DNA of 64,000 nt from Actinomycetes bacterium (GTDB lineage: Bacteria; Actinomycetota; Actinomycetes; Prado026), in assembly GCA_038210415.1 (NCBI GenBank), contig JBBQWS010000006.1:28650-92649 (forward strand), read 5' to 3'. Made by a program: the position numbers and the translations under genes. Within the stretch, counting starts at the first letter, position 1, and each line of letters opens with the position of its first letter. This document shows positions 8,681-15,521 of the stretch, piece after piece. A model generated the notes under the pieces. It worked only from the letters and a program-made list of their open reading frames with translations. It did no database searches and was not told the DNA's origin.

Positions 8681-9607
8681 CTAGGCCAGCTGGTCCAGCC
8701 TGCGCAGGATGACCCCTTCGCGCAGCGCCCAGGGGCAGATCTCGAGCTCCGGGATGCCGAGCAGGTCCATCGCCGCGTCGGCCACGAGGGCGCCCGCGAG
8801 AAGTTGGTGGGCCCGGCCGGCGGAGATACCGGGCAGGCCGGCGCGGTCGGCCGCGGTCATGGCGGCGATCTTCGGCAGCCACGTCAGGAGCTGGTCGTGC
8901 CGGAGCAGGCGCCGGACGTAAGGCCCGTCGGTCGAAGGAGCCGCGCCGGTGAGCCGGGCCAGCGAACGGAACGTCTTCGACGTGCCGACCACCCGGTCCG
9001 GCGCCCCCGCCCGGGTGACGCGGCCGACGTCGCGCGCGAAGACCGCACGGATGTGCTTGCGGGCGGCCCGAACGTCGGTGGCCGACGGTGGGTCTCCTGC
9101 CAGCAGGTCACGGGTGAGGCGGCCAGCGCCCAGCGGCATCGAGTTCGCAGCGTCGGGTTCCTCGTCGGAACCGGTGGCCACCTCGAGGGAGCCGCCGCCG
9201 ATGTCGAGGACCAGCACCCGGCCGGACGACCAGCCGTACCAGCGGCGGACGGCCAGGAAGGTCAGCCGCGCCTCGTCGGCACCGGACAGCACCTGCAGGT
9301 CCGCCCCGGCCTCGCGGCGGACCCGGGCGAGCACGGCGTCACCGTTCGGTGCGTCGCGGACGGCGGACGTCGCGAACGACAACATCTCCTCGACGCCTTT
9401 GTCCTCGGCCTGCCCGATCGCGTCGGCCACGAAGGCGACCAGCCGGTCGGCGCCCTCGTCCCGGATCCGGCCCTGGTCGTCGAGCAGCTCGGCCAGCCGG
9501 AGCTCGGTCTTGTAGGAGAAGGCGGGCACCGGTGCGGCTCCGGCATGGGCGTCGACGACGAGAAGGTGAACGGTGTTCGAACCGACGTCCAGAACTCCAA
9601 GTCGCAT
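8681..9607 (-). CDS. ppx: Ppx/GppA family exopolyphosphatase
   Basis: [19 protein letters not shown].. and ..[12 protein letters not shown].., an actin-like ATPase fold typical of Ppx/GppA. Only the C-terminal 308 aa of the 726-aa ORF are genic. Confidence 0.85.
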
Positions 9608-9676
9608 GCGCGAACGGTACCCGCACCCGGTGAGGTCGTTGTCAGGAGTCCCGAGCCGTACGCCTAGGCTCTCGCC

Positions 9677-10441
9677 ATGCCCGAAGTAGACCTCGACTTC
9701 CCCCGCGCCTTCGTGGAGTTCCTCGACCCGGCGGACGCGCGCCAGCTGTTCCGCTGCGACCTCACCTGGCTGACCTCCAGCTGGAGCTGCATCTACGGGT
9801 CCGGCTGCAAGGGCATCGTCGCCGGACGGCCCGACGACGGCTGCTGCACCCACGGCGCCCATTTCTCCGACAAGAAGGACGAGAAGCGCGTCCGCGCCTA
9901 CGCCAAGCAGCTGACCAAGCAGACGTGGCAGCTGCACGGCACCAAGCAGCTCGTCGACGTCGACGAGGACGGCGCCCGCAAGACGGCGGTGGTCGACGGC
10001 GCCTGCGTCTTCCTGAACCGGCCCGGGTTCGCGGCCGGCGACGGGTGCGCCCTGCACGGGCTGGCGCTGCAGCTCGGCAGGCACCCGCTGGAGACCAAGC
10101 CGGACGTGTGCTGGCAGCTCCCTATCCGGCGTGGCTTCGAGCGGGTCACCCGCACCGACGGCTCCAAGGTCCTGGTCGTAACGATCGGCGAGTTCGACCG
10201 GCGGGGCTGGGGCGCAGGCGGCCACGACCTCCAGTGGTACTGCTCCGGGGCGACAGAGGCCCACGTGGGCAAGGAGCCGGTGTACGTCTCGAACGCACCT
10301 GAGCTCGTCGCGCTGATGGGTGAGCCGGCGTACGCAGAGCTGGCCCGCTTGTGCGAGCAACGGCTTGCGGGCATGCGTGGCAGAAGCAGGGGGAAGGCCG
10401 CGTCGATCGTGGCTCTGCACCCCGCCGATCCACAGGTCTAG
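9677..10441 (+). CDS. Conserved cysteine-rich hypothetical protein
   Basis: 254 aa, cysteine cluster [18 protein letters not shown]. Divergent from ppx. Confidence 0.5.
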
Positions 10442-10501
10442 CCACTCCCTAGTTCTCCACAGGCGGGCACGCGCGGGGCGCGCCGTGATGCCCGGTTCGC
10501 G

Positions 10502-10813
10502 TTGCCTGGCCGCATGCCCACCACCCCACTTCTCGTTGTCCCGCTCGAGGTTCTGGCGACCGCCGCCGTCATCGACGAGTGCGCTGCAAACGCCCGCGGT
10601 GGTCAAGGTGAGCTTGCTGCGATCGGTCCGACCGGCGGCTGCGGCGGGGTCGCGGGCGCAGCCTTCGGCCGGACGAGCGCGGCATGGCTCAGCGAGCTCG
10701 CGCGGCTCGCCGAACAGTCGGGAGCTCTCGCCGGTCTGCTCAGGGCGTCGGCCGTCGACTACCTGACCACCGACCGGGCAGCGATCACCTCGACACCAGG
10801 TGGGCATCCGTGA
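10502..10813 (+). CDS. Small (~100 aa) helical protein, EspC-like (type VII secretion-associated, DUF2580-like); first gene of the candidate toxin cassette
   Basis: Ala/Gly-rich helical hairpin with a central G..C..F turn, resembling EspC-family proteins. The TTG start is at 10502 (alternative ATG at 10514). Its TGA overlaps the GTG of the next gene (GTGA). Confidence 0.45.
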
Positions 10814-12057
10814 CCGCGCTGCTGGAGCAGGTCGGTCCGGTCGTCGTCCCGCCGCCACCACCCGATCTTCGAGAACCGCCGGGTGACGCCGCGGCCGCGA
10901 CTGCTGCGGCCCGCCGCTGTCTGGCCGCCGCCCAGGCCCTGCACGACAACCAGAGCCGGCTCACCGAGCATGCGGGTTCGCTGCTGGCCCGCCGACTCTG
11001 GTGCGGCGCTGCGTCCGCCGCGTTCCAACGCAGCCGCACCGAGGCCGCGGCCTGGCTCGGCAACGCCGGCCGGGCGCTGGCGCTCGTCGCAACCGCCCTC
11101 GTCACCTACGCCCAAGCACTCGAGCAGGCCCAGGGCCTCGCGCGCGGTGCCGCCACCCGGGCCGACGACCTGCGCCAACAGCGCAGCAGACTGCTCGCCG
11201 AGATCGAGCAGGCCCGTTCGTCCGACCCTGCCCCGGGGTTGCTCTTCGGCACCGCCGCCTTCACGCCCGCGACCGTCGCGCTCCAGCACCGAGCGGACCT
11301 GCTCGCCGACGACATCGCCGCCGTCGCTGCGGCCGTCGAAACGGCACAGGCGCTGACCCGACGGGCCGAGCAGACCGCGGCGTCAGCATTCGACGAGGCC
11401 ACCTCGATGACCTTCGCGGCCCGCGAGCGGGCTGCCCTGCGCCGGGCCGGTCGCAGCTCAGACAGCTCGGCTGGCACCTGGCTCGACGTCGGCGAGCTGG
11501 TCGGGCTCGGCTTGATCGACCTGGCCCTCGGAGTCGCCGACGTCGCACAGGGCGGGCTCGACCCGGTCACCGACGCCGCCGAGCTGGCCGCCGTCAGCCG
11601 GACCGGCACGGTGGCCTCCCGGTTGGGCGCGCGGTTCCTCGCCGACGACACCGTGGCCACAGCCGCGGCCGAGGCGACCCGGCTCGCGGAGGGCGAGGCG
11701 CTCGCAGCGGTCGAAGCGGAGACCGGCGGTGGCTGGCTCGCCGCGGCCCGGGCCAAGCTCCCCGACGGTTGGGGCCCGGGCACACCGGCCAGCAAGGGCA
11801 ACGGTTTCCGCTGGATCGAGCCAGAGGGCCAGGGCAGCTACTTGCGCATCGACCCGGGTCGGCCCGGGCACCCCGATGTCCTGCAGCGCGTCGACCACGT
11901 CCACGTCCGGCAGGGCTTCAGCCGCATCGGCCGCGGTGGCCAGCGCCTTTCGGACAGGACCGCAGATCTCACCGACGCCGAGCTCGACGAGCTGGCACGG
12001 CTCGAACACGTCCCCCTCAGCGAATGGCTGACCTGGAAGAACTGGTGGCAACGATGA
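10810..12057 (+). CDS. Candidate T7SS-type polymorphic toxin: N-terminal WXG100-like helical domain ([10 protein letters not shown]) + long Ala-rich helical linker + C-terminal ~110-aa His-rich domain of unknown function (..[40 protein letters not shown]..)
   Basis: The GTG start overlaps the upstream stop. The W-x-G motif sits in a predicted helix-turn-helix. The C-terminal domain matches no family I recognise. The TGA overlaps the ATG of the next gene (ATGA). Confidence 0.5.
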
Positions 12058-12473
12058 CCGTTCGATTCCCCGCGATGCGCGACGAAGTGCTCTTCGCGCT
12101 CGAGCTGCTCGGCGACGCCGACCGGCAGCGACGCTTCTGGCTGAGTCCGGAGGCCGGCAGGTCCTACCCGGATCTCGACTGGGTCATCCGCGGGCTCTTC
12201 GACACCGTGGTGCTCCCCGACCCCGTGCTCCAGGTCGGCGTCTGTGTCTACGACGACGAAGTCGGGCTCCTGGTCGACCTGAACCGGGTGCTCGAACCGC
12301 TCATCGAGCAGCTCGACGACGTCCCGGACGCAGAGTACGTCGCCCACCCGACCTGGTCAGAAGTGGTTCGGCTGGCCGGACTCGCCGCGGCCGTCCTGCG
12401 GGCCCGCGACGACGCCGAGGCGTCGCGTCCCGATCCTGTCGGTCCCGATGCCTACGCTGACCCCCATGGCTAA
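12054..12473 (+). CDS. Small acidic cytoplasmic protein, candidate cognate immunity protein
   Basis: 139 aa, Asp/Glu-rich, no signal peptide. Translationally coupled to the preceding gene (ATGA). Overlaps the radA start by 8 nt. Confidence 0.45.
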   Translation: MTVRFPAMRDEVLFALELLGDADRQRRFWLSPEAGRSYPDLDWVIRGLFDTVVLPDPVLQVGVCVYDDEVGLLVDLNRVLEPLIEQLDDVPDAEYVAHPTWSEVVRLAGLAAAVLRARDDAEASRPDPVGPDAYADPHG

Positions 12474-13854
12474 GGCGATCGGCAGCTCCCGGGCAGGCGG
12501 AACGAACCGCGCGGCATACAAGTGCGGCGAGTGCGGGTGGCAGGCCGCGAAGTGGGTGGGGCGCTGTGGTGAGTGCCAGGCGTGGGGCACCGTCGACCTG
12601 ATCGGTGGTCCCCAGCTCCGCCAGGTATCCGCCGGGCCGGTCACCGTGAGCGCCCAACCCATCGGGGACATCGACGTTGCCGAGGCTGCCGTGCGGGCCA
12701 CGGGCGTCGGCGAGCTCGACCGGGTGCTGGGTGGCGGGCTGGTGCCCGGGGCGGTGGTGCTGCTCGCCGGCGAGCCGGGAGTCGGCAAGTCCACGCTCCT
12801 GCTCGCGGTCGCCGCGCAGGCGGCCCGATCGGGGCGTCGCGCTTTGTACATCACCGGCGAGGAGTCTGCGGCCCAGGTGCGACTGCGGGGGGGCCGGATC
12901 AGCGCACTCGACCCCGAGCTGTTCCTCGCCGCCGAGAGCGACCTCGGTGCCGTTCTCGGCCAGATCGACGCCGTGCGACCTCAGCTCCTGGTGCTCGACT
13001 CGGTCCAGACCATCTCGACCGCCGAGGCCGACGGGGCAGCCGGCGGCGTGACCCAGGTGCGCGAGGTCGCCGCTGCACTGATCAGGGTCGCCAAGGAGCG
13101 TGACATCGCCACGGTGCTGATCGGCCACGTCACCAAGGACGGCTCCATCGCCGGCCCGCGCGTCCTGGAGCACCTCGTCGACGTCGTGCTCCAGTTCGAA
13201 GGCGAGCGGCACTCTCGCCTCCGGGTGGTCCGGGCCACCAAGAACCGCTACGGACCCTCCGACGAGATCGGCTGCTTCGACCTCGGCGACTCCGGCATCG
13301 TCGGGCTACCCGACCCCAGCGGGCTCTTCCTGTCGCACGGCCTCGGCCCCGTGGTCGGAACGACCGTGACGGTCACGCTTGAAGGCCGGCGCACCCTCGT
13401 CTCGGAAGTGCAGGCCCTCGTCGGTATCGCGTCCTCGCCGAACCCACGGCGTGCCACCTCGGGCCTCGACTCCGCTCGGATGGCGATGCTGCTCGCGGTC
13501 CTCGAACGGCGGGCGGGCATGCGGATCGGGCACTACGACATCTACACCTCGACGGTCGGCGGCGCGCGGCTCGCCGAGCCCGCCGCCGACCTGGCCGTCC
13601 TGCTCGCTATCGCCTCGGCCGCCCATGACCGCCCGCTCCCGTTCGGCACCGTGGCGATCGGCGAGGTCGGGCTCGCGGGCGAGGTCCGGCGGGTCTCGGG
13701 GATCACCCAGCGGCTCGCCGAGGCAGCCCGCCTGGGCTTCACCCGCGCGATCGTCCCCCTCGACTCCGGAGTCGTGCCCAAGGGACTGCAGGTGACGGAG
13801 GTCGCCCACATCGGGGCCGCTCTCGAACAGCTCGCGCCGCTCCCGGTCCCGTAG
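12466..13854 (+). CDS. radA: DNA repair protein RadA (Sms)
   Basis: Zinc finger [23 protein letters not shown], Walker [11 protein letters not shown], a KNRYGP motif and a Lon-like C-terminal domain. Confidence 0.92.
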
Positions 13855-13916
13855 ACCGCTCGGGAGGAGCCCCGCCCGCTAGACTTCCGGCGAGTTCCGA
13901 CGGCGGGAGTGGACGG

Positions 13917-15023
13917 GTGTCACCGATCGAGCGACCGGGGTCGACCGACAAGGGCGAGCTCCTCCTCCGGCAGACCCTGGCAGCGGTCGCCCCAGGCACA
14001 GCGATGCGCGACGCGCTCGAGCGCATCCTGCGGGGCCGCACCGGCGCCCTCATGGTCCTCGGCCACGACAAAGCCGTCGAAGCGATCTGCAGCGGCGGCT
14101 TCTCCCTCGACGTCGCGTTCTCCGCGACCGGCCTGCGCGAGCTCGCCAAGATGGACGGCGCCGTGGTGCTCGACCGGGACGCGACGCGCATCCTGCGCTG
14201 CAACGTGCAGCTCGTCCCCGACTCCTCCATCGCCACCGAGGAGTCGGGCACCCGGCACCGCACGGCCGAGCGGGTGGCGAAACAGACCGGCTACCCGGTC
14301 ATCTCCGTCAGCCAGTCGATGCACATCATCGCCCTGTACGTCGCCGGGCGGCGCTACGTTGTCGAGGAGTCCGCCGCGATCCTGTCCCGCGCCAACCAGG
14401 CACTGGCAACGCTCGAGCGCTACAAGATGCGCCTCGACGAGGTGTCCGGAACGCTCTCGGCGCTCGAGATCGAAGACCTCGTCACGGTGCGCGACGTCGC
14501 CGCCGTCGCCCAGCGCCTCGAGATGGTGCGGCGCATCGCCGGCGAGATCGAGGGCTACGTCGTCGAGCTGGGGGCCGACGGACGACTCCTGGCCCTCCAG
14601 CTCGACGAGCTCATCGCCGGGGTCGAGCTCGACCGCGAGCTGGTGGCCCGCGACTACCTTCCGCCGAGCTCCAGCCGGCGAGCGCGCACGGTCTTCGATG
14701 TGCTCGCCGACCTAGACGGACTCACCTCGGCCGAGCTGCTCGACCTCTCGTCGGTCGGCCGGGCCCTCGGGCACAACAGCTCCGGCGAGGCGCTCGACAG
14801 CGCGGTCGTGCCTCGCGGCTACCGCCTGCTGGCCCGGGTGCCCCGGCTGCCCGGCGCCGTCGTCGACCGCCTCGTGGAGCACTTCGGCTCACTACAGAAG
14901 TTGCTCGCCGCGGGCATCGACGACCTGCAGGCCGTCGAGGGGGTCGGCGAGAGCCGGGCCCGAACGGTCCGCGAGGGCCTGTCCCGGCTGGCTGAGTCGT
15001 CGATCCTCGAACGCTACGTGTGA
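13917..15023 (+). CDS. disA: DNA integrity scanning protein DisA (diadenylate cyclase)
   Basis: DAC-domain motifs (..GALMVLGHD.., ..DGAVVLD.., ..RHRTAERV..) and a C-terminal HhH region. Canonical radA-disA pairing. Confidence 0.9.
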
Positions 15024-15024
15024 C

Positions 15025-15048
15025 CAGGGCGCTCGCAACCGCGCCCTG
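15025..15048. terminator. Stem-loop CAGGGCGC-tcgcaacc-GCGCCCTG between the convergent disA and cheW genes
   Basis: 8-bp perfect inverted repeat 2 nt after the disA stop. No U-tract, which is common in high-GC actinobacteria. Confidence 0.4.
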
Positions 15049-15077
15049 CCGGGACGGGGCCGAAGCGATCGACGCCG

Positions 15078-15521
15078 CTAGCTGAACGCAGCCTCGGTGC
15101 CCGGCAGCGACGCGCTGAGGCCGGCCATCAGCCGCAGGTCGACCAGCAGCACCGGCCGGTAGTCCTCGTCGGTCGTACGCAGCACCTCGAGCACGTACGC
15201 CGGCAGTCCGATCGGCCTTGGCGCCGGATCGCTCTCCATGGCGTCCAGGTTGACCACAGCGAGCACCCGGTCGACGGCCACGCCCACCGGACCCTCCGGA
15301 CCGGGCGACATCACCACGACGTCGCCGAGCCCACCCGGGTCGGCCGCCCCGCGCAGGTCGACGATGGGAAGTGGGTCGCCCCGGAGCTCGATCAGCCCGG
15401 TGACCGGTGCCCGGACCCCGGCCAGCGGTTCCAGCCCGACCGCGCGGATGATCTCGCGGACCTGTTCCAGCGGGGCGGCGAGGTCGCGGCCACCCATGAC
15501 GAACGTCAAGTAACCGCTCAT
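15078..15521 (-). CDS. cheW: CheW-like chemotaxis coupling protein
   Basis: 147-aa single CheW domain (..LTFVMGGRDLAAPLEQVREI.., ..VNLD..). Confidence 0.8.
   Translation of the reverse strand: MSGYLTFVMGGRDLAAPLEQVREIIRAVGLEPLAGVRAPVTGLIELRGDPLPIVDLRGAADPGGLGDVVVMSPGPEGPVGVAVDRVLAVVNLDAMESDPAPRPIGLPAYVLEVLRTTDEDYRPVLLVDLRLMAGLSASLPGTEAAFS

What the first reader, a model, noticed from the sequence alone, without database searches (positions are those of the whole stretch)
10502..12473. Translationally coupled three-gene cassette resembling a T7SS-type polymorphic toxin/immunity module with an unrecognised C-terminal domain
Gene 1 (~100 aa) is an Ala/Gly-rich helical hairpin reminiscent of EspC/DUF2580-type T7SS-associated proteins. 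Gene 2 (~415 aa) has a GTG start overlapping gene 1's stop. It begins with a WXG100-like helix-turn-helix (..[14 protein letters not shown]..), continues through a long Ala-rich helical region, and ends in a ~110-aa domain ([58 protein letters not shown]) that I cannot assign to any known toxin fold. Gene 3 (139 aa, acidic, no signal peptide) starts by ATGA overlap, which is the classical position and character of an immunity protein. The cassette sits between the conserved ppx and radA-disA loci. N-terminal secretion domain plus variable C-terminal toxin plus downstream immunity is the polymorphic-toxin architecture. The His-rich C-terminus (GHPD..DHVH) could be a metal-dependent nuclease-like active site. 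No ESX core genes are present in the window.
Basis: partly seen in the sequence, partly recalled or inferred. Interest (0 to 1): 0.8.

Follow-up and report, generated by a model that had tools for sequence, protein, structure and literature searches.

The report
Secreted nuclease toxin with immunity gene
This is a three-gene bacterial weapon cassette: a small helper protein, a toxin whose tail belongs to the recently characterised PT7 family of DNA/RNA-cutting toxins, and a protective immunity protein. It is a new example of a known kind of system, not a new kind.

Summary
The three overlapping genes are real: g1 10514-10813, g2 10810-12057, g3 12054-12473. The polymorphic-toxin reading holds.

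**Toxin domain.** The "unassignable" C-terminal ~100 aa of g2 matches no Pfam or NCBIfam model. It does belong to a large family: 372 cluster representatives, always at the extreme C-terminus. Carriers include RHS, CdiA, WXG100/T7SS_signal, PT-HINT and phage-portal proteins.

**Immunity.** g3 is an acidic DUF7945/SCO4402-family protein. This family lies directly downstream of 24 of 30 distinct toxin-domain genes, so it is the cognate immunity protein. It is unrelated to PIM7.

**Export.** g2's N-terminus has an invariant WxG and recurs with other C-termini. g1 is WXG100/EspC-like with an invariant YxxxD. Type VII export is therefore inferred, not shown; no secretion-machine gene lies in the window.

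**Extra finding.** The cassette is a fast-evolving island (57-67% protein identity against 90-97% in the flanks). It is fused to radA.

Verdict: new member of a known kind; moderate interest.

The parts
10514..10813 (+). g1: 99-aa Ala/Gly-rich acidic protein, probably a WXG100/EspC-like partner or targeting factor for the toxin. An alternative TTG start at 10502 would give 103 aa.
   Evidence: The gene is called as 99 aa in L001 and is present as an exact sequence in the collection. Pfam hits are sub-threshold but nearly full-length, to WXG100 (E 0.15) and T7SS_ESX_EspC (E 0.23). The same two families are the top hits for its homologues in L008 (0.14 / 0.057) and L010 (0.017 / 0.0014). A small gene sits in the same position, with the same 4-nt overlap, in L007-L010.
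10760..10774 (+). YxxxD motif of g1 (Y-L-T-T-D), the C-terminal motif of the bipartite type VII secretion signal
   Evidence: Y87, T90 and D91 are invariant in the alignment of g1 with its homologues, including the 22%-identical Saccharopolyspora protein. The meaning of the motif comes from Daleke et al. 2012, as cited in PMC8191103.
10810..12057 (+). g2: 415-aa polymorphic toxin with a GTG start and a GTGA overlap with g1's stop
   Evidence: An identical protein, P0001, is on record. Ten relatives of 57-59% identity are co-linear over the full length.
10870..11211 (+). g2 N-terminal WXG100-like helical domain (residues ~21-134), with the invariant WxG (W64-C65-G66) at 10999-11007
   Evidence: W64, C65 and G66 are invariant in A1. 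The ortholog P0002 hits Pfam WXG100 at E 0.0069, residues 26-113. hhalign of the N-terminal alignment against the L002 protein gives E 9.6e-10, probability 96.5%. Against the PF21725 T7SS_signal region of P0040 it gives E 5e-5, probability 68%. No Pfam hit was found for g2 itself.
11551..11583 (+). Conserved junction motif [11 protein letters not shown] (residues 248-258), lying between the helical N-terminal region and the linker to the toxin domain
   Evidence: The motif is invariant in A1. It is shared with P0090 (GADPLTDGAE) and with the L002 protein ([10 protein letters not shown]), both of which carry different C-termini. A role as a recombination or processing junction is inference.
11752..12054 (+). 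g2 C-terminal toxin domain (residues 315-415), a PT7-like nuclease. The predicted catalytic codons are D348 (11851-11853), H363 (11896-11898) and H400 (12007-12009).
12054..12473 (+). g3: 139-aa acidic DUF7945/SCO4402-family protein, the predicted cognate immunity protein. It has an ATGA overlap with g2's stop, and its 3' end overlaps radA.
   Evidence: NCBIfam SCO4402_fam scores 90.6 bits against a cut-off of 50. Pfam DUF7945 scores 52.6 bits against a cut-off of 27. pI is 4.2. The same family lies directly downstream of the toxin domain in Caballeronia, Desulfobacterales, Saccharopolyspora, phage and metagenome loci, 24 of 30 distinct cases.
12466..13854 (+). radA (context, not part of the toxin system). 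Its probable start, ATG 12466, overlaps g3's stop codon by 8 nt, so g1-g2-g3-radA form one overlapped gene string.
   Evidence: radA in L007 is 462 aa and overlaps g3 by 8 nt.

Best explanation
The region encodes a polymorphic toxin-immunity cassette of the type VII secretion style.

**g2, the toxin.** Its N-terminal ~300 residues are a WXG100-like helical trafficking domain. Its last ~100 residues are a small nuclease domain of the PT7 superfamily. The predicted mechanism of the toxin domain is metal-dependent cleavage of nucleic acid in a target cell, using D348, H363 and H400. DNA is the likely substrate, and possibly rRNA as well.

**g3, the immunity protein.** g3 is an acidic DUF7945/SCO4402-family protein. 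It is predicted to bind the toxin domain in the producer cell and block its active site.

**g1, the partner.** g1 is a small WXG100/EspC-like protein. It is predicted to pair with the N-terminal domain of g2 and supply the YxxxD half of the bipartite signal that, together with g2's WxG, targets the complex to a type VII secretion system encoded elsewhere in the genome.

**Shown here**
- The gene structure.
- The modular shuffling of both halves of g2.
- The fold and sequence relationship to PT7, with conservation of its three essential residues.
- The conserved toxin/DUF7945 gene pairing.

**Inferred**
- Nuclease activity.
- Neutralisation by g3.
- The g1-g2 complex.
- Type VII export.

Confidence by sub-claim: toxin-immunity pair with a PT7-like nuclease about 0.85; type VII export about 0.6.
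For: **Toxin domain is a mobile module**
- A profile of g2 against 1.84 billion representatives found 372 proteins (216 at E<=1e-10). Nearly all match only profile positions ~305-417, at the extreme C-terminus of proteins 114-2722 aa long.
- Carriers include RHS proteins, a CdiA/DUF637 protein, T7SS_signal proteins, WXG100_2 and WXG100 proteins, PT-HINT and phage-portal fusions.

**N-terminal domain is also modular**
- P0106 matches g2 residues 38-225 and ends in a CdiA-CT RNase A domain.
- P0090 matches residues 18-313 and has another C-terminus.
- The L002 protein has a third C-terminus.

**Relationship to PT7**
- AlphaFold model: pLDDT 93, pTM 0.84.
- PT7 sequence recovered from a B. cereus plasmid: BLASTP E 2e-7, 38% identity over 52 columns.
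- hhalign E 4.5e-5 over PT7 residues 3-76.
- Shared blocks: KLPxGW, NGF, R(I)DP, DHVH, AHIP.
- PT7 D37, H47 and H73, whose alanine mutants lose toxicity, align with D348, H363 and H400.
- PT7 is a Mg2+-dependent, EDTA-sensitive endo-DNase. Wild-type protein also degrades rRNA.

**Immunity**
- g3 passes the curated cut-offs of SCO4402_fam and DUF7945.
- That family directly follows the toxin domain in all five lineages outside the window's own group that I examined by gene calls.
- It does so in 24 of 30 distinct loci by HMM.
- g3 has pI 4.2. PIM7 and PIM1 likewise present negatively charged, DNA-mimicking surfaces.

**Export**
- WxG is invariant in g2.
- YxxxD is invariant in g1 homologues.
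- There are weak but consistent WXG100/EspC/T7SS_signal similarities.
- The same three-gene layout is described for WXG-100 polymorphic toxin cassettes of mycobacterial prophages.

**Selection**
- Cassette dN/dS is 0.21-0.40, with the catalytic residues kept, so the genes are maintained.
Against: - g2 has no hit to any Pfam, NCBIfam or PADLOC model.
- g3 is unrelated in sequence to PIM7. Its structure could not be modelled (pLDDT 48.7), so the immunity mechanism is inferred from synteny and charge only.
- In vitro, PIM7 itself failed to block PT7 mutants.
- BLASTP and HMM do not connect the g2 N-terminus to the PF21725 domain of P0040. Only hhalign does.
- g1's WXG100/EspC hits are all below the gathering score, and g1 finds nothing in the PDB.
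- No type VII core gene is in the 64-kb window.
- The cassette sits in a fixed core-genome position overlapping radA. That is unusual for interbacterial weapons.
Confidence: 0.72

Rival explanations
1. The cassette is a non-secreted toxin-antitoxin-like (addiction, stress-response or abortive-infection) module. The nuclease would act inside the producer when the labile or titrated g3 protein is lost, and the N-terminal domain and g1 would have a regulatory rather than an export role.
For: - Many family members are short stand-alone toxin-domain proteins of 99-140 aa followed by DUF7945, which looks like a two-gene TA pair.
- No secretion machinery lies in the window.
- The cassette is vertically inherited at a fixed core position and overlaps radA.
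- Zhang et al. note TA-like versions of some polymorphic toxin domains.
Against: - In g2 the domain is fused to a 300-aa WxG-bearing domain that recurs with other toxin C-termini.
- The same domain is fused to RHS, CdiA, PT-HINT and WXG100 delivery modules.
- There is no PADLOC hit.
- The short stand-alone copies are typical orphan cassettes or contig fragments of polymorphic toxin loci; for example, L003 lies next to RHS fragments.
Confidence: 0.12
2. The architecture is the same, but the toxin domain is chiefly an RNase (rRNA or another RNA) rather than a DNase.
For: - Purified wild-type PT7 degrades rRNA as well as DNA.
- UniRef names one family member 'Bacterial toxin 24 domain-containing protein'.
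- Ntox24 was predicted by Zhang et al. to be a metal-independent endoRNase found with RHS, FilH, WXG, LXG and MuF carriers. That carrier range resembles the one seen here.
- A two-His active site is common in RNases.
Against: - PT7 mutants degraded plasmid and genomic DNA in a Mg2+-dependent, EDTA-sensitive way and did not cut tRNA. PT7-expressing cells lost DAPI signal.
- None of 64 family members, nor PT7, hits a Pfam Ntox24 model, even at E<=10. The Ntox24 name is therefore an untested label.
Confidence: 0.2
3. g2 and g3 are housekeeping DNA-repair accessory proteins that work with RadA and DisA, not a conflict system.
For: - g1-g2-g3-radA are co-directional with overlapping stop and start codons, and this arrangement is conserved in relatives.
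- The predicted activity is a nuclease.
Against: - In Saccharopolyspora the same three-gene cassette lies nowhere near radA.
- The toxin domain plus DUF7945 pair occurs behind RHS, CdiA and phage-portal genes in unrelated bacteria.
- The cassette evolves 5-15 times faster at non-synonymous sites than radA and disA. That is the opposite of a housekeeping partner.
Confidence: 0.03
4. The cassette is a decaying relic and the toxin is no longer active.
For: - Protein divergence is high relative to the flanks.
- GC3 is lower than in neighbouring genes: 0.75-0.86 against 0.90-0.93.
Against: - The reading frames are intact and the 4-nt overlaps are conserved in both lineages.
- All invariant family residues, including D348, H363 and H400, are kept.
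- dN/dS is 0.2-0.4, well below 1.
Confidence: 0.05

Closest known systems
PT7 / PIM7 toxin-immunity pair of Bacillus cereus (Nachmias et al., 'Systematic discovery of antibacterial and antifungal bacterial toxins', bioRxiv 10.1101/2021.10.19.465003; PDB 8owu)
   Same: - A small C-terminal toxin domain of polymorphic toxins.
- Shared motif blocks KLPxGW, R(I)DP, DHVH and AHIP.
- PT7's three essential residues D37, H47 and H73 correspond to D348, H363 and H400.
- An acidic immunity gene lies directly downstream.
- Fusion to type VII-type N-termini: LXG in PT7, WXG-like here.
   Different: - Only 23-38% identity.
- This family is ~25 residues longer. It has a longer loop between RID and DH, an inserted helix in the window's lineage, and a conserved Trp-rich tail (PLSEWLxWxxW) after the HIP motif, where PT7 ends.
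- The immunity protein is a different family: DUF7945, predicted helical, against PIM7, with no sequence similarity between them.
- PT7 was reported in Firmicutes and Proteobacteria. This branch is abundant in Actinobacteria-like high-GC sequences, Proteobacteria and phages.
WXG-100 polymorphic toxin cassettes of mycobacterial prophages (McProf gp98-gp97-gp96; PMC8191103)
   Same: The three-gene order is identical: a ~100-aa WXG100-like protein, a large toxin with an N-terminal WXG-100 motif and a C-terminal nuclease domain, and then an immunity gene. Export by an actinobacterial type VII system is predicted.
   Different: - The toxin domain differs: Toxin_43/Tde-like HxxD DNase there, PT7-like here.
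- The immunity family differs: GAD-like/DUF1851 there, DUF7945 here.
- The location differs: prophage-borne there; here chromosomal, at a fixed core locus, and fused to radA.
LXG toxins with Lap targeting factors, and EsaD with its small partners, of the Firmicute T7SSb (PMC9600955, PMC10801868, PMC10653861)
   Same: A helical N-terminal domain carries a swappable toxin. Small helical-hairpin partner protein(s) are encoded immediately upstream and are needed for export. An immunity gene lies downstream (abstracts).
   Different: - g2 has no LXG domain hit.
- There is one upstream partner gene, not two or three.
- The host is a high-GC actinobacterium-like organism, where antibacterial type VII toxins are mostly predictions.
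Ntox24 of Zhang et al. 2012 (PMC3482391)
   Same: The carrier range is similar: RHS, FilH, HINT, WXG/LXG and MuF. TA-like stand-alone versions exist. Conserved histidines are present. UniRef labels one family member 'Bacterial toxin 24 domain-containing protein'.
   Different: - No member of this family, nor PT7, matches any Ntox24 model in the Pfam copy used.
- The listed partners Imm50 and Imm53 are not what is found here.
- Ntox24 is described as all-beta with a Y, H, H signature, whereas this family's signature is D, DH, H plus several Trp. The relationship is unresolved.

Membership tests
Polymorphic toxin system (sensu Zhang/Aravind 2012) | The C-terminal toxin domain is found on different N-terminal delivery scaffolds | tested here: met
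   The same ~100-aa domain is found at the C-terminus of RHS, CdiA/DUF637, T7SS_signal, WXG100_2, WXG100, PT-HINT and phage-portal proteins.
Polymorphic toxin system (sensu Zhang/Aravind 2012) | The N-terminal domain is shared with proteins carrying other C-terminal toxin domains | tested here: met
   P0106 carries RNAse_A_bac as its C-terminal domain and matches at E 2e-15 library-wide. P0090 has a different C-terminal domain, E 6e-16. The L002 protein matches by hhalign at E 9.6e-10 and has a third C-terminus.
Polymorphic toxin system (sensu Zhang/Aravind 2012) | A cognate immunity gene lies immediately downstream and co-varies with the toxin domain rather than with the scaffold | tested here: met
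   A DUF7945 ORF lies directly downstream in 24 of 30 distinct toxin-domain genes and in every gene-called locus checked, whatever the scaffold.
Polymorphic toxin system (sensu Zhang/Aravind 2012) | The C-terminal domain is toxic and the downstream gene product neutralises it | not testable with these tools
   This needs expression and rescue experiments.
PT7 toxin family (PDB 8owu) | Same fold as the solved PT7 structure | tested here: met
PT7 toxin family (PDB 8owu) | Detectable sequence homology | tested here: met
   BLASTP E 2e-7 in a single comparison. hhalign E 4.5e-5, probability 69%, over PT7 residues 3-76. The hmmsearch of the family profile against PDB sequences did not list it.
PT7 toxin family (PDB 8owu) | Residues essential for toxicity (D37, H47, H73) are conserved | tested here: met
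   They align with D348, H363 and H400. Both His are invariant, and the Asp is conserved in at least 90% of 64 members.
PT7 toxin family (PDB 8owu) | Mg2+-dependent nuclease activity | not testable with these tools
   Biochemical assay needed. The activity is known for PT7 only.
PT7 toxin family (PDB 8owu) | Paired with a PIM7-family immunity protein | tested here: not met
   g3 compared with the gene downstream of PT7 in B. cereus gives no BLASTP alignment at E<=100. g3 is a DUF7945 protein instead. Hence this is a distinct branch of the superfamily, not the PT7/PIM7 family proper.
DUF7945 (PF25656) / SCO4402 family (NF047838) | Score above the curated cut-off of the family model | tested here: met
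   NCBIfam: 90.6 bits against a cut-off of 50, over 1-119 of 119 model positions. Pfam: 52.6 bits against a cut-off of 27, over 1-121 of 123 positions.
Type VII secretion substrate (WXG100 superfamily / T7SS_signal PF21725) | g2 N-terminus matches a WXG100, WXG100_2, LXG or T7SS_signal model above the gathering score | tested here: not met
   g2 has no hit even at E<=10. The ortholog P0002 hits WXG100 only at E 0.0069, 17.1 bits against a cut-off of 27.3.
Type VII secretion substrate (WXG100 superfamily / T7SS_signal PF21725) | Profile-level similarity to a bona fide T7SS_signal or WXG100 domain | tested here: inconclusive
   hhalign against the PF21725 region of P0040 gives E 5e-5 and probability 68%, with the PGDP and WxG blocks aligned. 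The L002 protein, itself a sub-threshold WXG100 hit (E 0.0027), matches at E 9.6e-10. BLASTP and hmmsearch against P0040 were negative.
Type VII secretion substrate (WXG100 superfamily / T7SS_signal PF21725) | Bipartite signal: WxG in one partner and YxxxD/E near the C-terminus of the other | tested here: met
   W64-x-G66 is invariant in g2 and also present in P0040, P0090 and P0106. Y87-x-x-x-D91 is invariant in g1 homologues. Short motifs can arise by chance.
Type VII secretion substrate (WXG100 superfamily / T7SS_signal PF21725) | A type VII machine (EccC/EssC ATPase etc.) in the same genome, and export dependent on it | not testable with these tools
   Only 64 kb is available. It has no ORF above 862 aa, and no core gene was found among those scanned.
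WXG100 / EspC (g1) | Match to PF06013 or PF10824 above the gathering score | tested here: inconclusive
   Matches are sub-threshold but nearly full-length, and they are the top two hits in three divergent homologues (E 0.0014-0.23). A profile search of the PDB found nothing.
Ntox24 (Zhang et al. 2012) | Match to the Ntox24 family model | tested here: not met
   No Ntox24 hit for 64 family members, for P0162 or for PT7 at E<=10. The only link is a UniRef protein name.

The most novel reading that the evidence does not exclude
The cassette may be a vertically inherited, rapidly co-diversifying type VII nuclease toxin-immunity locus that is hard-wired into the radA-disA DNA-repair and c-di-AMP checkpoint operon.
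- Toxin and immunity expression would then be coupled to the DNA-damage response.
- Closely related strains, with 90-97% identical backbone proteins, would carry mutually non-protective toxin/immunity alleles that define incompatibility groups.
- DUF7945/SCO4402 would be a previously unannotated, very widespread immunity family for a PT7-like nuclease superfamily.
- The locus would be a handle for showing antibacterial type VII antagonism in environmental Actinobacteria.
Probability: 0.2. Interest if true: 0.6.

Novelty: new member of a known kind. Interest (0 to 1): 0.4.

Why it matters
**A predicted function for two unnamed families.**
- The C-terminal domain of g2 and at least 370 cluster representatives match no Pfam or NCBIfam model. 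They can be annotated as PT7-like nuclease toxins.
- DUF7945/SCO4402-family proteins can be annotated as their immunity proteins.
- I found no paper mentioning DUF7945, SCO4402, PF21725 or DUF6317.

**Antibacterial type VII toxins beyond Firmicutes.** It adds a chromosomal, high-GC example to a list that is almost entirely Firmicute on the experimental side. It comes with a compact, testable three-gene unit.

**A natural pair of alleles.** The contrast between near-identical flanks and 57-67% identical cassette proteins offers two natural alleles. They could be used to ask whether toxin and immunity specificity have co-diverged.

None of this changes the current picture of polymorphic toxins. 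It extends that picture.

Tried and rejected
**Family and structure searches that found nothing**
- Pfam, NCBIfam and PADLOC scans of g2: no hits.
- PDB sequence searches with g2, the C-terminal-domain profile, g3 and the g1 profile: only chance-level hits.
- The afdb50 library was unavailable.

**Limited searches for relatives**
- The word-indexed search found only 11 relatives of g2 and 2 of g3.
- The genome-contig scan gave a single weak locus, so the source organism could not be named. Exact look-ups returned no names.

**g3 structure**
- The 2-sequence run gave an unusable model, pLDDT 48.7. No fold comparison of g3 with PIM7 or other immunity proteins was possible.

**N-terminal domain**
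- BLASTP of the g2 N-terminus against P0040, and hmmsearch of the N-terminal profile against P0040, were negative.

**Ntox24 identity**
- Considered because of a UniRef name. Not supported by any model hit, and the 2012 paper's supplement holds no alignment.

**Other negative checks**
- Promoter and terminator scan: no sites of note.
- Rfam: no RNA family in the window.
- No paralogous cassette or orphan toxin or immunity fragment elsewhere in the window.

**Recent horizontal acquisition rejected.** The cassette's synonymous divergence from the relative is similar to that of the flanks, and its GC content is not anomalous.


Full report
**1. Observation**

The window is high-GC DNA (about 72%) with no compositional break at the locus.

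- g1 ends at TGA 10811-10813.
- g2 begins at GTG 10810 (GTGA overlap) and encodes 415 aa.
- g3 begins at ATG 12054 (ATGA overlap) and encodes 139 aa. It is acidic, with pI 4.2.

Independent assemblies call the same three genes. Relatives of about 58% identity keep the same lengths and the same 4-nt overlaps.

- g1 most probably starts at ATG 10514 (99 aa).
- An Rv0495c/DUF3109-like gene lies between ppx and the cassette.
- g3's stop overlaps the probable radA start at 12466 by 8 nt. g1-g2-g3-radA therefore form one overlapped string.

radA, disA and clpC were confirmed by Pfam.

**2. The C-terminal domain of g2**

g2 has no hit in Pfam, NCBIfam or PADLOC, and none by sequence in the PDB.

A profile of g2 and its ten close relatives (A1) was searched against 1.84 billion representatives. 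It found 372 proteins, 216 of them at E<=1e-10. With two exceptions among the best 150, the hits matched only profile positions ~305-417. Nearly always the match was at the very C-terminus of proteins ranging from 114 to 2722 aa.

Pfam scans of these carriers showed:

- RHS repeats;
- a CdiA-type haemagglutinin with DUF637;
- T7SS_signal (PF21725);
- WXG100_2 and WXG100;
- a pretoxin HINT domain;
- a phage portal domain in viral contigs.

This is the defining behaviour of a polymorphic-toxin C-terminal module.

A 64-sequence alignment of the domain (A2) has the consensus K-x-P-x-x-W-G ... G-x-R-W-x-D-P ... G-x-R-I-D-x-G ... Q-Q-V-D-H-V-x-V-R ... I-G-R-D-G ... A-H-I-P-L-S-E-W-L-x-W-x-x-W. Two histidines are invariant (g2 H363 and H400). 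One aspartate is nearly invariant (D348). None of the 64 members hits any Pfam model.

**3. Fold and identity of the domain**

AlphaFold2 on A2 gave a confident model: pLDDT 93.1, pTM 0.84.

8owu is the PT7(Bc) D37A toxin bound to its immunity protein PIM7, from Nachmias et al. In that work PT7 was reported as follows:

- an LXG-fused polymorphic toxin domain;
- toxic to bacteria and yeast;
- a non-specific, Mg2+-dependent, EDTA-sensitive endo-DNase;
- of a previously unseen topology;
- D37A, H47A and H73A abolish toxicity.

A 2026 preprint adds that wild-type PT7 also degrades rRNA.

I reconstructed PT7 fragments from the mutagenesis primers. I then recovered the full domain from a B. cereus plasmid that matches those fragments at 100%. 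Comparison with the window gave the following:

- BLASTP of the window's domain against PT7: E 2e-7, 38% identity over 52 columns.
- hhalign of A2 against PT7: E 4.5e-5 over PT7 residues 3-76.
- The alignment pairs KLPEGW with KLPDGW, MRIDP with LRIDP, YDHVH with VDHVH, and AHIP with EHVP.
- D37, H47 and H73 correspond to D348, H363 and H400.

The His in GHPD is not conserved.

Relative to PT7, this family has a longer RID-to-DH loop and a conserved Trp-rich tail after HIP. The window's lineage also has an inserted helix.

One family member carries the UniRef name 'Bacterial toxin 24 domain-containing protein'. The carrier range of Ntox24 in Zhang et al. is similar. No Ntox24 model hit could be obtained for any member or for PT7, so I treat that only as a lead.

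**4. g3 as the immunity protein**

g3 passes the curated thresholds of NCBIfam SCO4402_fam (90.6 bits against 50) and Pfam DUF7945 (52.6 against 27). I found no paper on either name.

In gene-called loci, a DUF7945 gene follows the toxin-domain gene directly or with overlap. The loci were:

- a Caballeronia RHS fragment;
- a Desulfobacterales MAG;
- two metagenome contigs;
- Saccharopolyspora subtropica;
- the window's relatives.

I then scanned 36 further viral and metagenome loci with HMMs built from A2 and A3. Of 30 distinct toxin-domain genes with at least 330 bp downstream, 24 are followed immediately by a DUF7945 ORF. Three of the exceptions share another small ORF type.

The pairing holds whatever the N-terminal scaffold, which is what is expected of a cognate immunity protein.

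g3 shows no sequence similarity to the PIM7-like gene next to PT7. This branch of the toxin superfamily therefore uses a different immunity family.

A structural test failed. The blocking mechanism is therefore inferred from synteny, from g3's acidity, and from the PT1/PT7 precedents, where acidic immunity surfaces occlude the active site.

**5. The N-terminal domain, g1 and the export route**

Two library hits match only the N-terminal part of g2:

- P0106 matches residues 38-225 and ends in a CdiA-CT RNase A domain.
- P0090 matches residues 18-313 and has another C-terminus.

A 482-aa protein of an Acidimicrobiales MAG (L002) is also related, at hhalign E 9.6e-10. It shares the junction motif [10 protein letters not shown] and has a third C-terminus. 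The N-terminal half is thus itself a reusable trafficking module.

It carries an invariant WxG (W64-C65-G66). Its links to known type VII families are weak but point the same way:

- WXG100 at E 0.0069 for the ortholog P0002, and E 0.0027 for the L002 protein.
- hhalign E 5e-5 against the PF21725 region of P0040, with the PGDP and WxG blocks aligned.
- BLASTP and hmmsearch were negative.

P0040, from Saccharopolyspora, has the same overall design: a 108-aa upstream gene, a T7SS_signal domain fused to the same toxin domain, and DUF7945.

g1 and its counterparts give only sub-threshold matches. These are nearly full-length and are consistently the top-ranked hits, to EspC and WXG100. The proteins share an invariant Y-x-x-x-D near the C-terminus, which is the second half of the mycobacterial type VII signal.

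The same gene order is described for WXG-100 polymorphic toxin cassettes of mycobacterial prophages. Small upstream helical partners are required for LXG and EsaD export in Firmicutes.

No type VII core gene is present in the window. There is no ORF above 862 aa, and the genes scanned are housekeeping. Type VII export is therefore the most likely route, but it is inferred.

**6. Evolutionary context (not in the original finding)**

In relatives (L007-L009) the cassette sits in exactly the same place: AP endonuclease 2, ppx, Rv0495c-like, g1, g2, g3, radA, disA.

| Measure | Flanking genes | Cassette genes |
|---|---|---|
| Protein identity | 90-97% | g1 67%, g2 57%, g3 62% |
| Nucleotide identity | 80-93% | 58-71% (about 10490-12400) |
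| dS | 0.52-0.86 | 0.75-1.0 |
| dN/dS | 0.04-0.09 | 0.21-0.40 |

Synonymous divergence is similar inside and outside the cassette, but dN is 5-15 times higher inside. The cassette was therefore inherited vertically and is evolving fast at the protein level, while keeping its catalytic residues. That pattern fits a toxin-immunity arms race or relaxed constraint. It does not fit recent transfer or a housekeeping role.

**7. Verdict**

The domain is not of unknown kind. It is a divergent, unannotated branch of the PT7 nuclease toxin superfamily, paired with DUF7945 as its immunity family and carried here on a WXG-type scaffold.

This is a new member of a known kind. Its value is in annotation (two unnamed families gain a predicted role) and in providing a compact experimental system. 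It is not a new mechanism.

Unshown steps:

- nuclease activity and substrate;
- neutralisation by g3;
- the g1-g2 complex;
- type VII export.

Noticed in passing
window 10490-12400 versus L007 7800-9670: The cassette is a hypervariable island in a conserved backbone. Flanking proteins are 90-97% identical between the window and its relative, but g1, g2 and g3 are only 67%, 57% and 62% identical. dS is similar inside and outside the cassette, while dN is 5-15 times higher inside.
   Followed up: yes
window 12448-12473: g3's stop codon overlaps the probable radA start (ATG 12466, ATGGCTAA), as in L007. g1-g2-g3-radA are therefore all joined by overlapping stop and start codons. A nuclease toxin operon is thus physically fused to the radA-disA repair genes. 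The listed radA ORF start at 12448 is probably 6 codons too early.
   Followed up: partly
L012-L014 (1516-3683) and L005 (3024-4911): In viral contigs the same toxin domain ends a 588-aa protein whose N-terminus is a phage portal fragment (Pfam Phage_portal, 6e-14), and a DUF7945 ORF follows it. Several further portal-fragment ORFs lie around it, one of them beside an RNase A-type toxin gene. This looks like an array of alternative portal-toxin cassettes.
   Followed up: partly
L016 1072-1470, L038 661-1011, L042 2103-2504: Three of the six toxin-domain genes that lack a DUF7945 neighbour are followed by another small ORF type. These share a motif: VP-x-EL-x-x-W-[FE]-D-x-[FS]-F. They may be a second immunity family or a very divergent DUF7945.
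   Followed up: no
L002 5104-6890 (Acidimicrobiales MAG DASZKW010000016.1): A 482-aa protein has the same N-terminal family as g2 and the same [10 protein letters not shown] junction motif, but an unidentified C-terminal domain with no Pfam hit. A 114-aa ORF follows it. This is likely another toxin-immunity pair on the same scaffold.
   Followed up: partly
window 11551-11583 (g2 residues 248-258): The motif [11 protein letters not shown] is invariant in g2 orthologs and is kept in proteins that share the N-terminus but not the toxin domain. It might mark a recombination or processing junction, analogous to VENN in CdiA. That analogy is my own inference and was not tested.
   Followed up: no
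L017 778-1080 and 3109-3575: One metagenome contig carries two toxin-domain genes about 2 kb apart. Only the second has a DUF7945 ORF next to it.
   Followed up: no
P0162 (UniRef100_A0ABX1BAR9, Nonomuraea): UniRef names this 99-aa stand-alone family member 'Bacterial toxin 24 domain-containing protein', yet the Pfam copy used here gives it no hit at E<=10. The name may be machine-predicted, or may come from a newer model.
   Followed up: partly
window 1-64000: No Rfam family reaches its gathering score anywhere in the 64-kb window. The consensus scan found no sigma-70-like promoter in 9600-15200.
   Followed up: no
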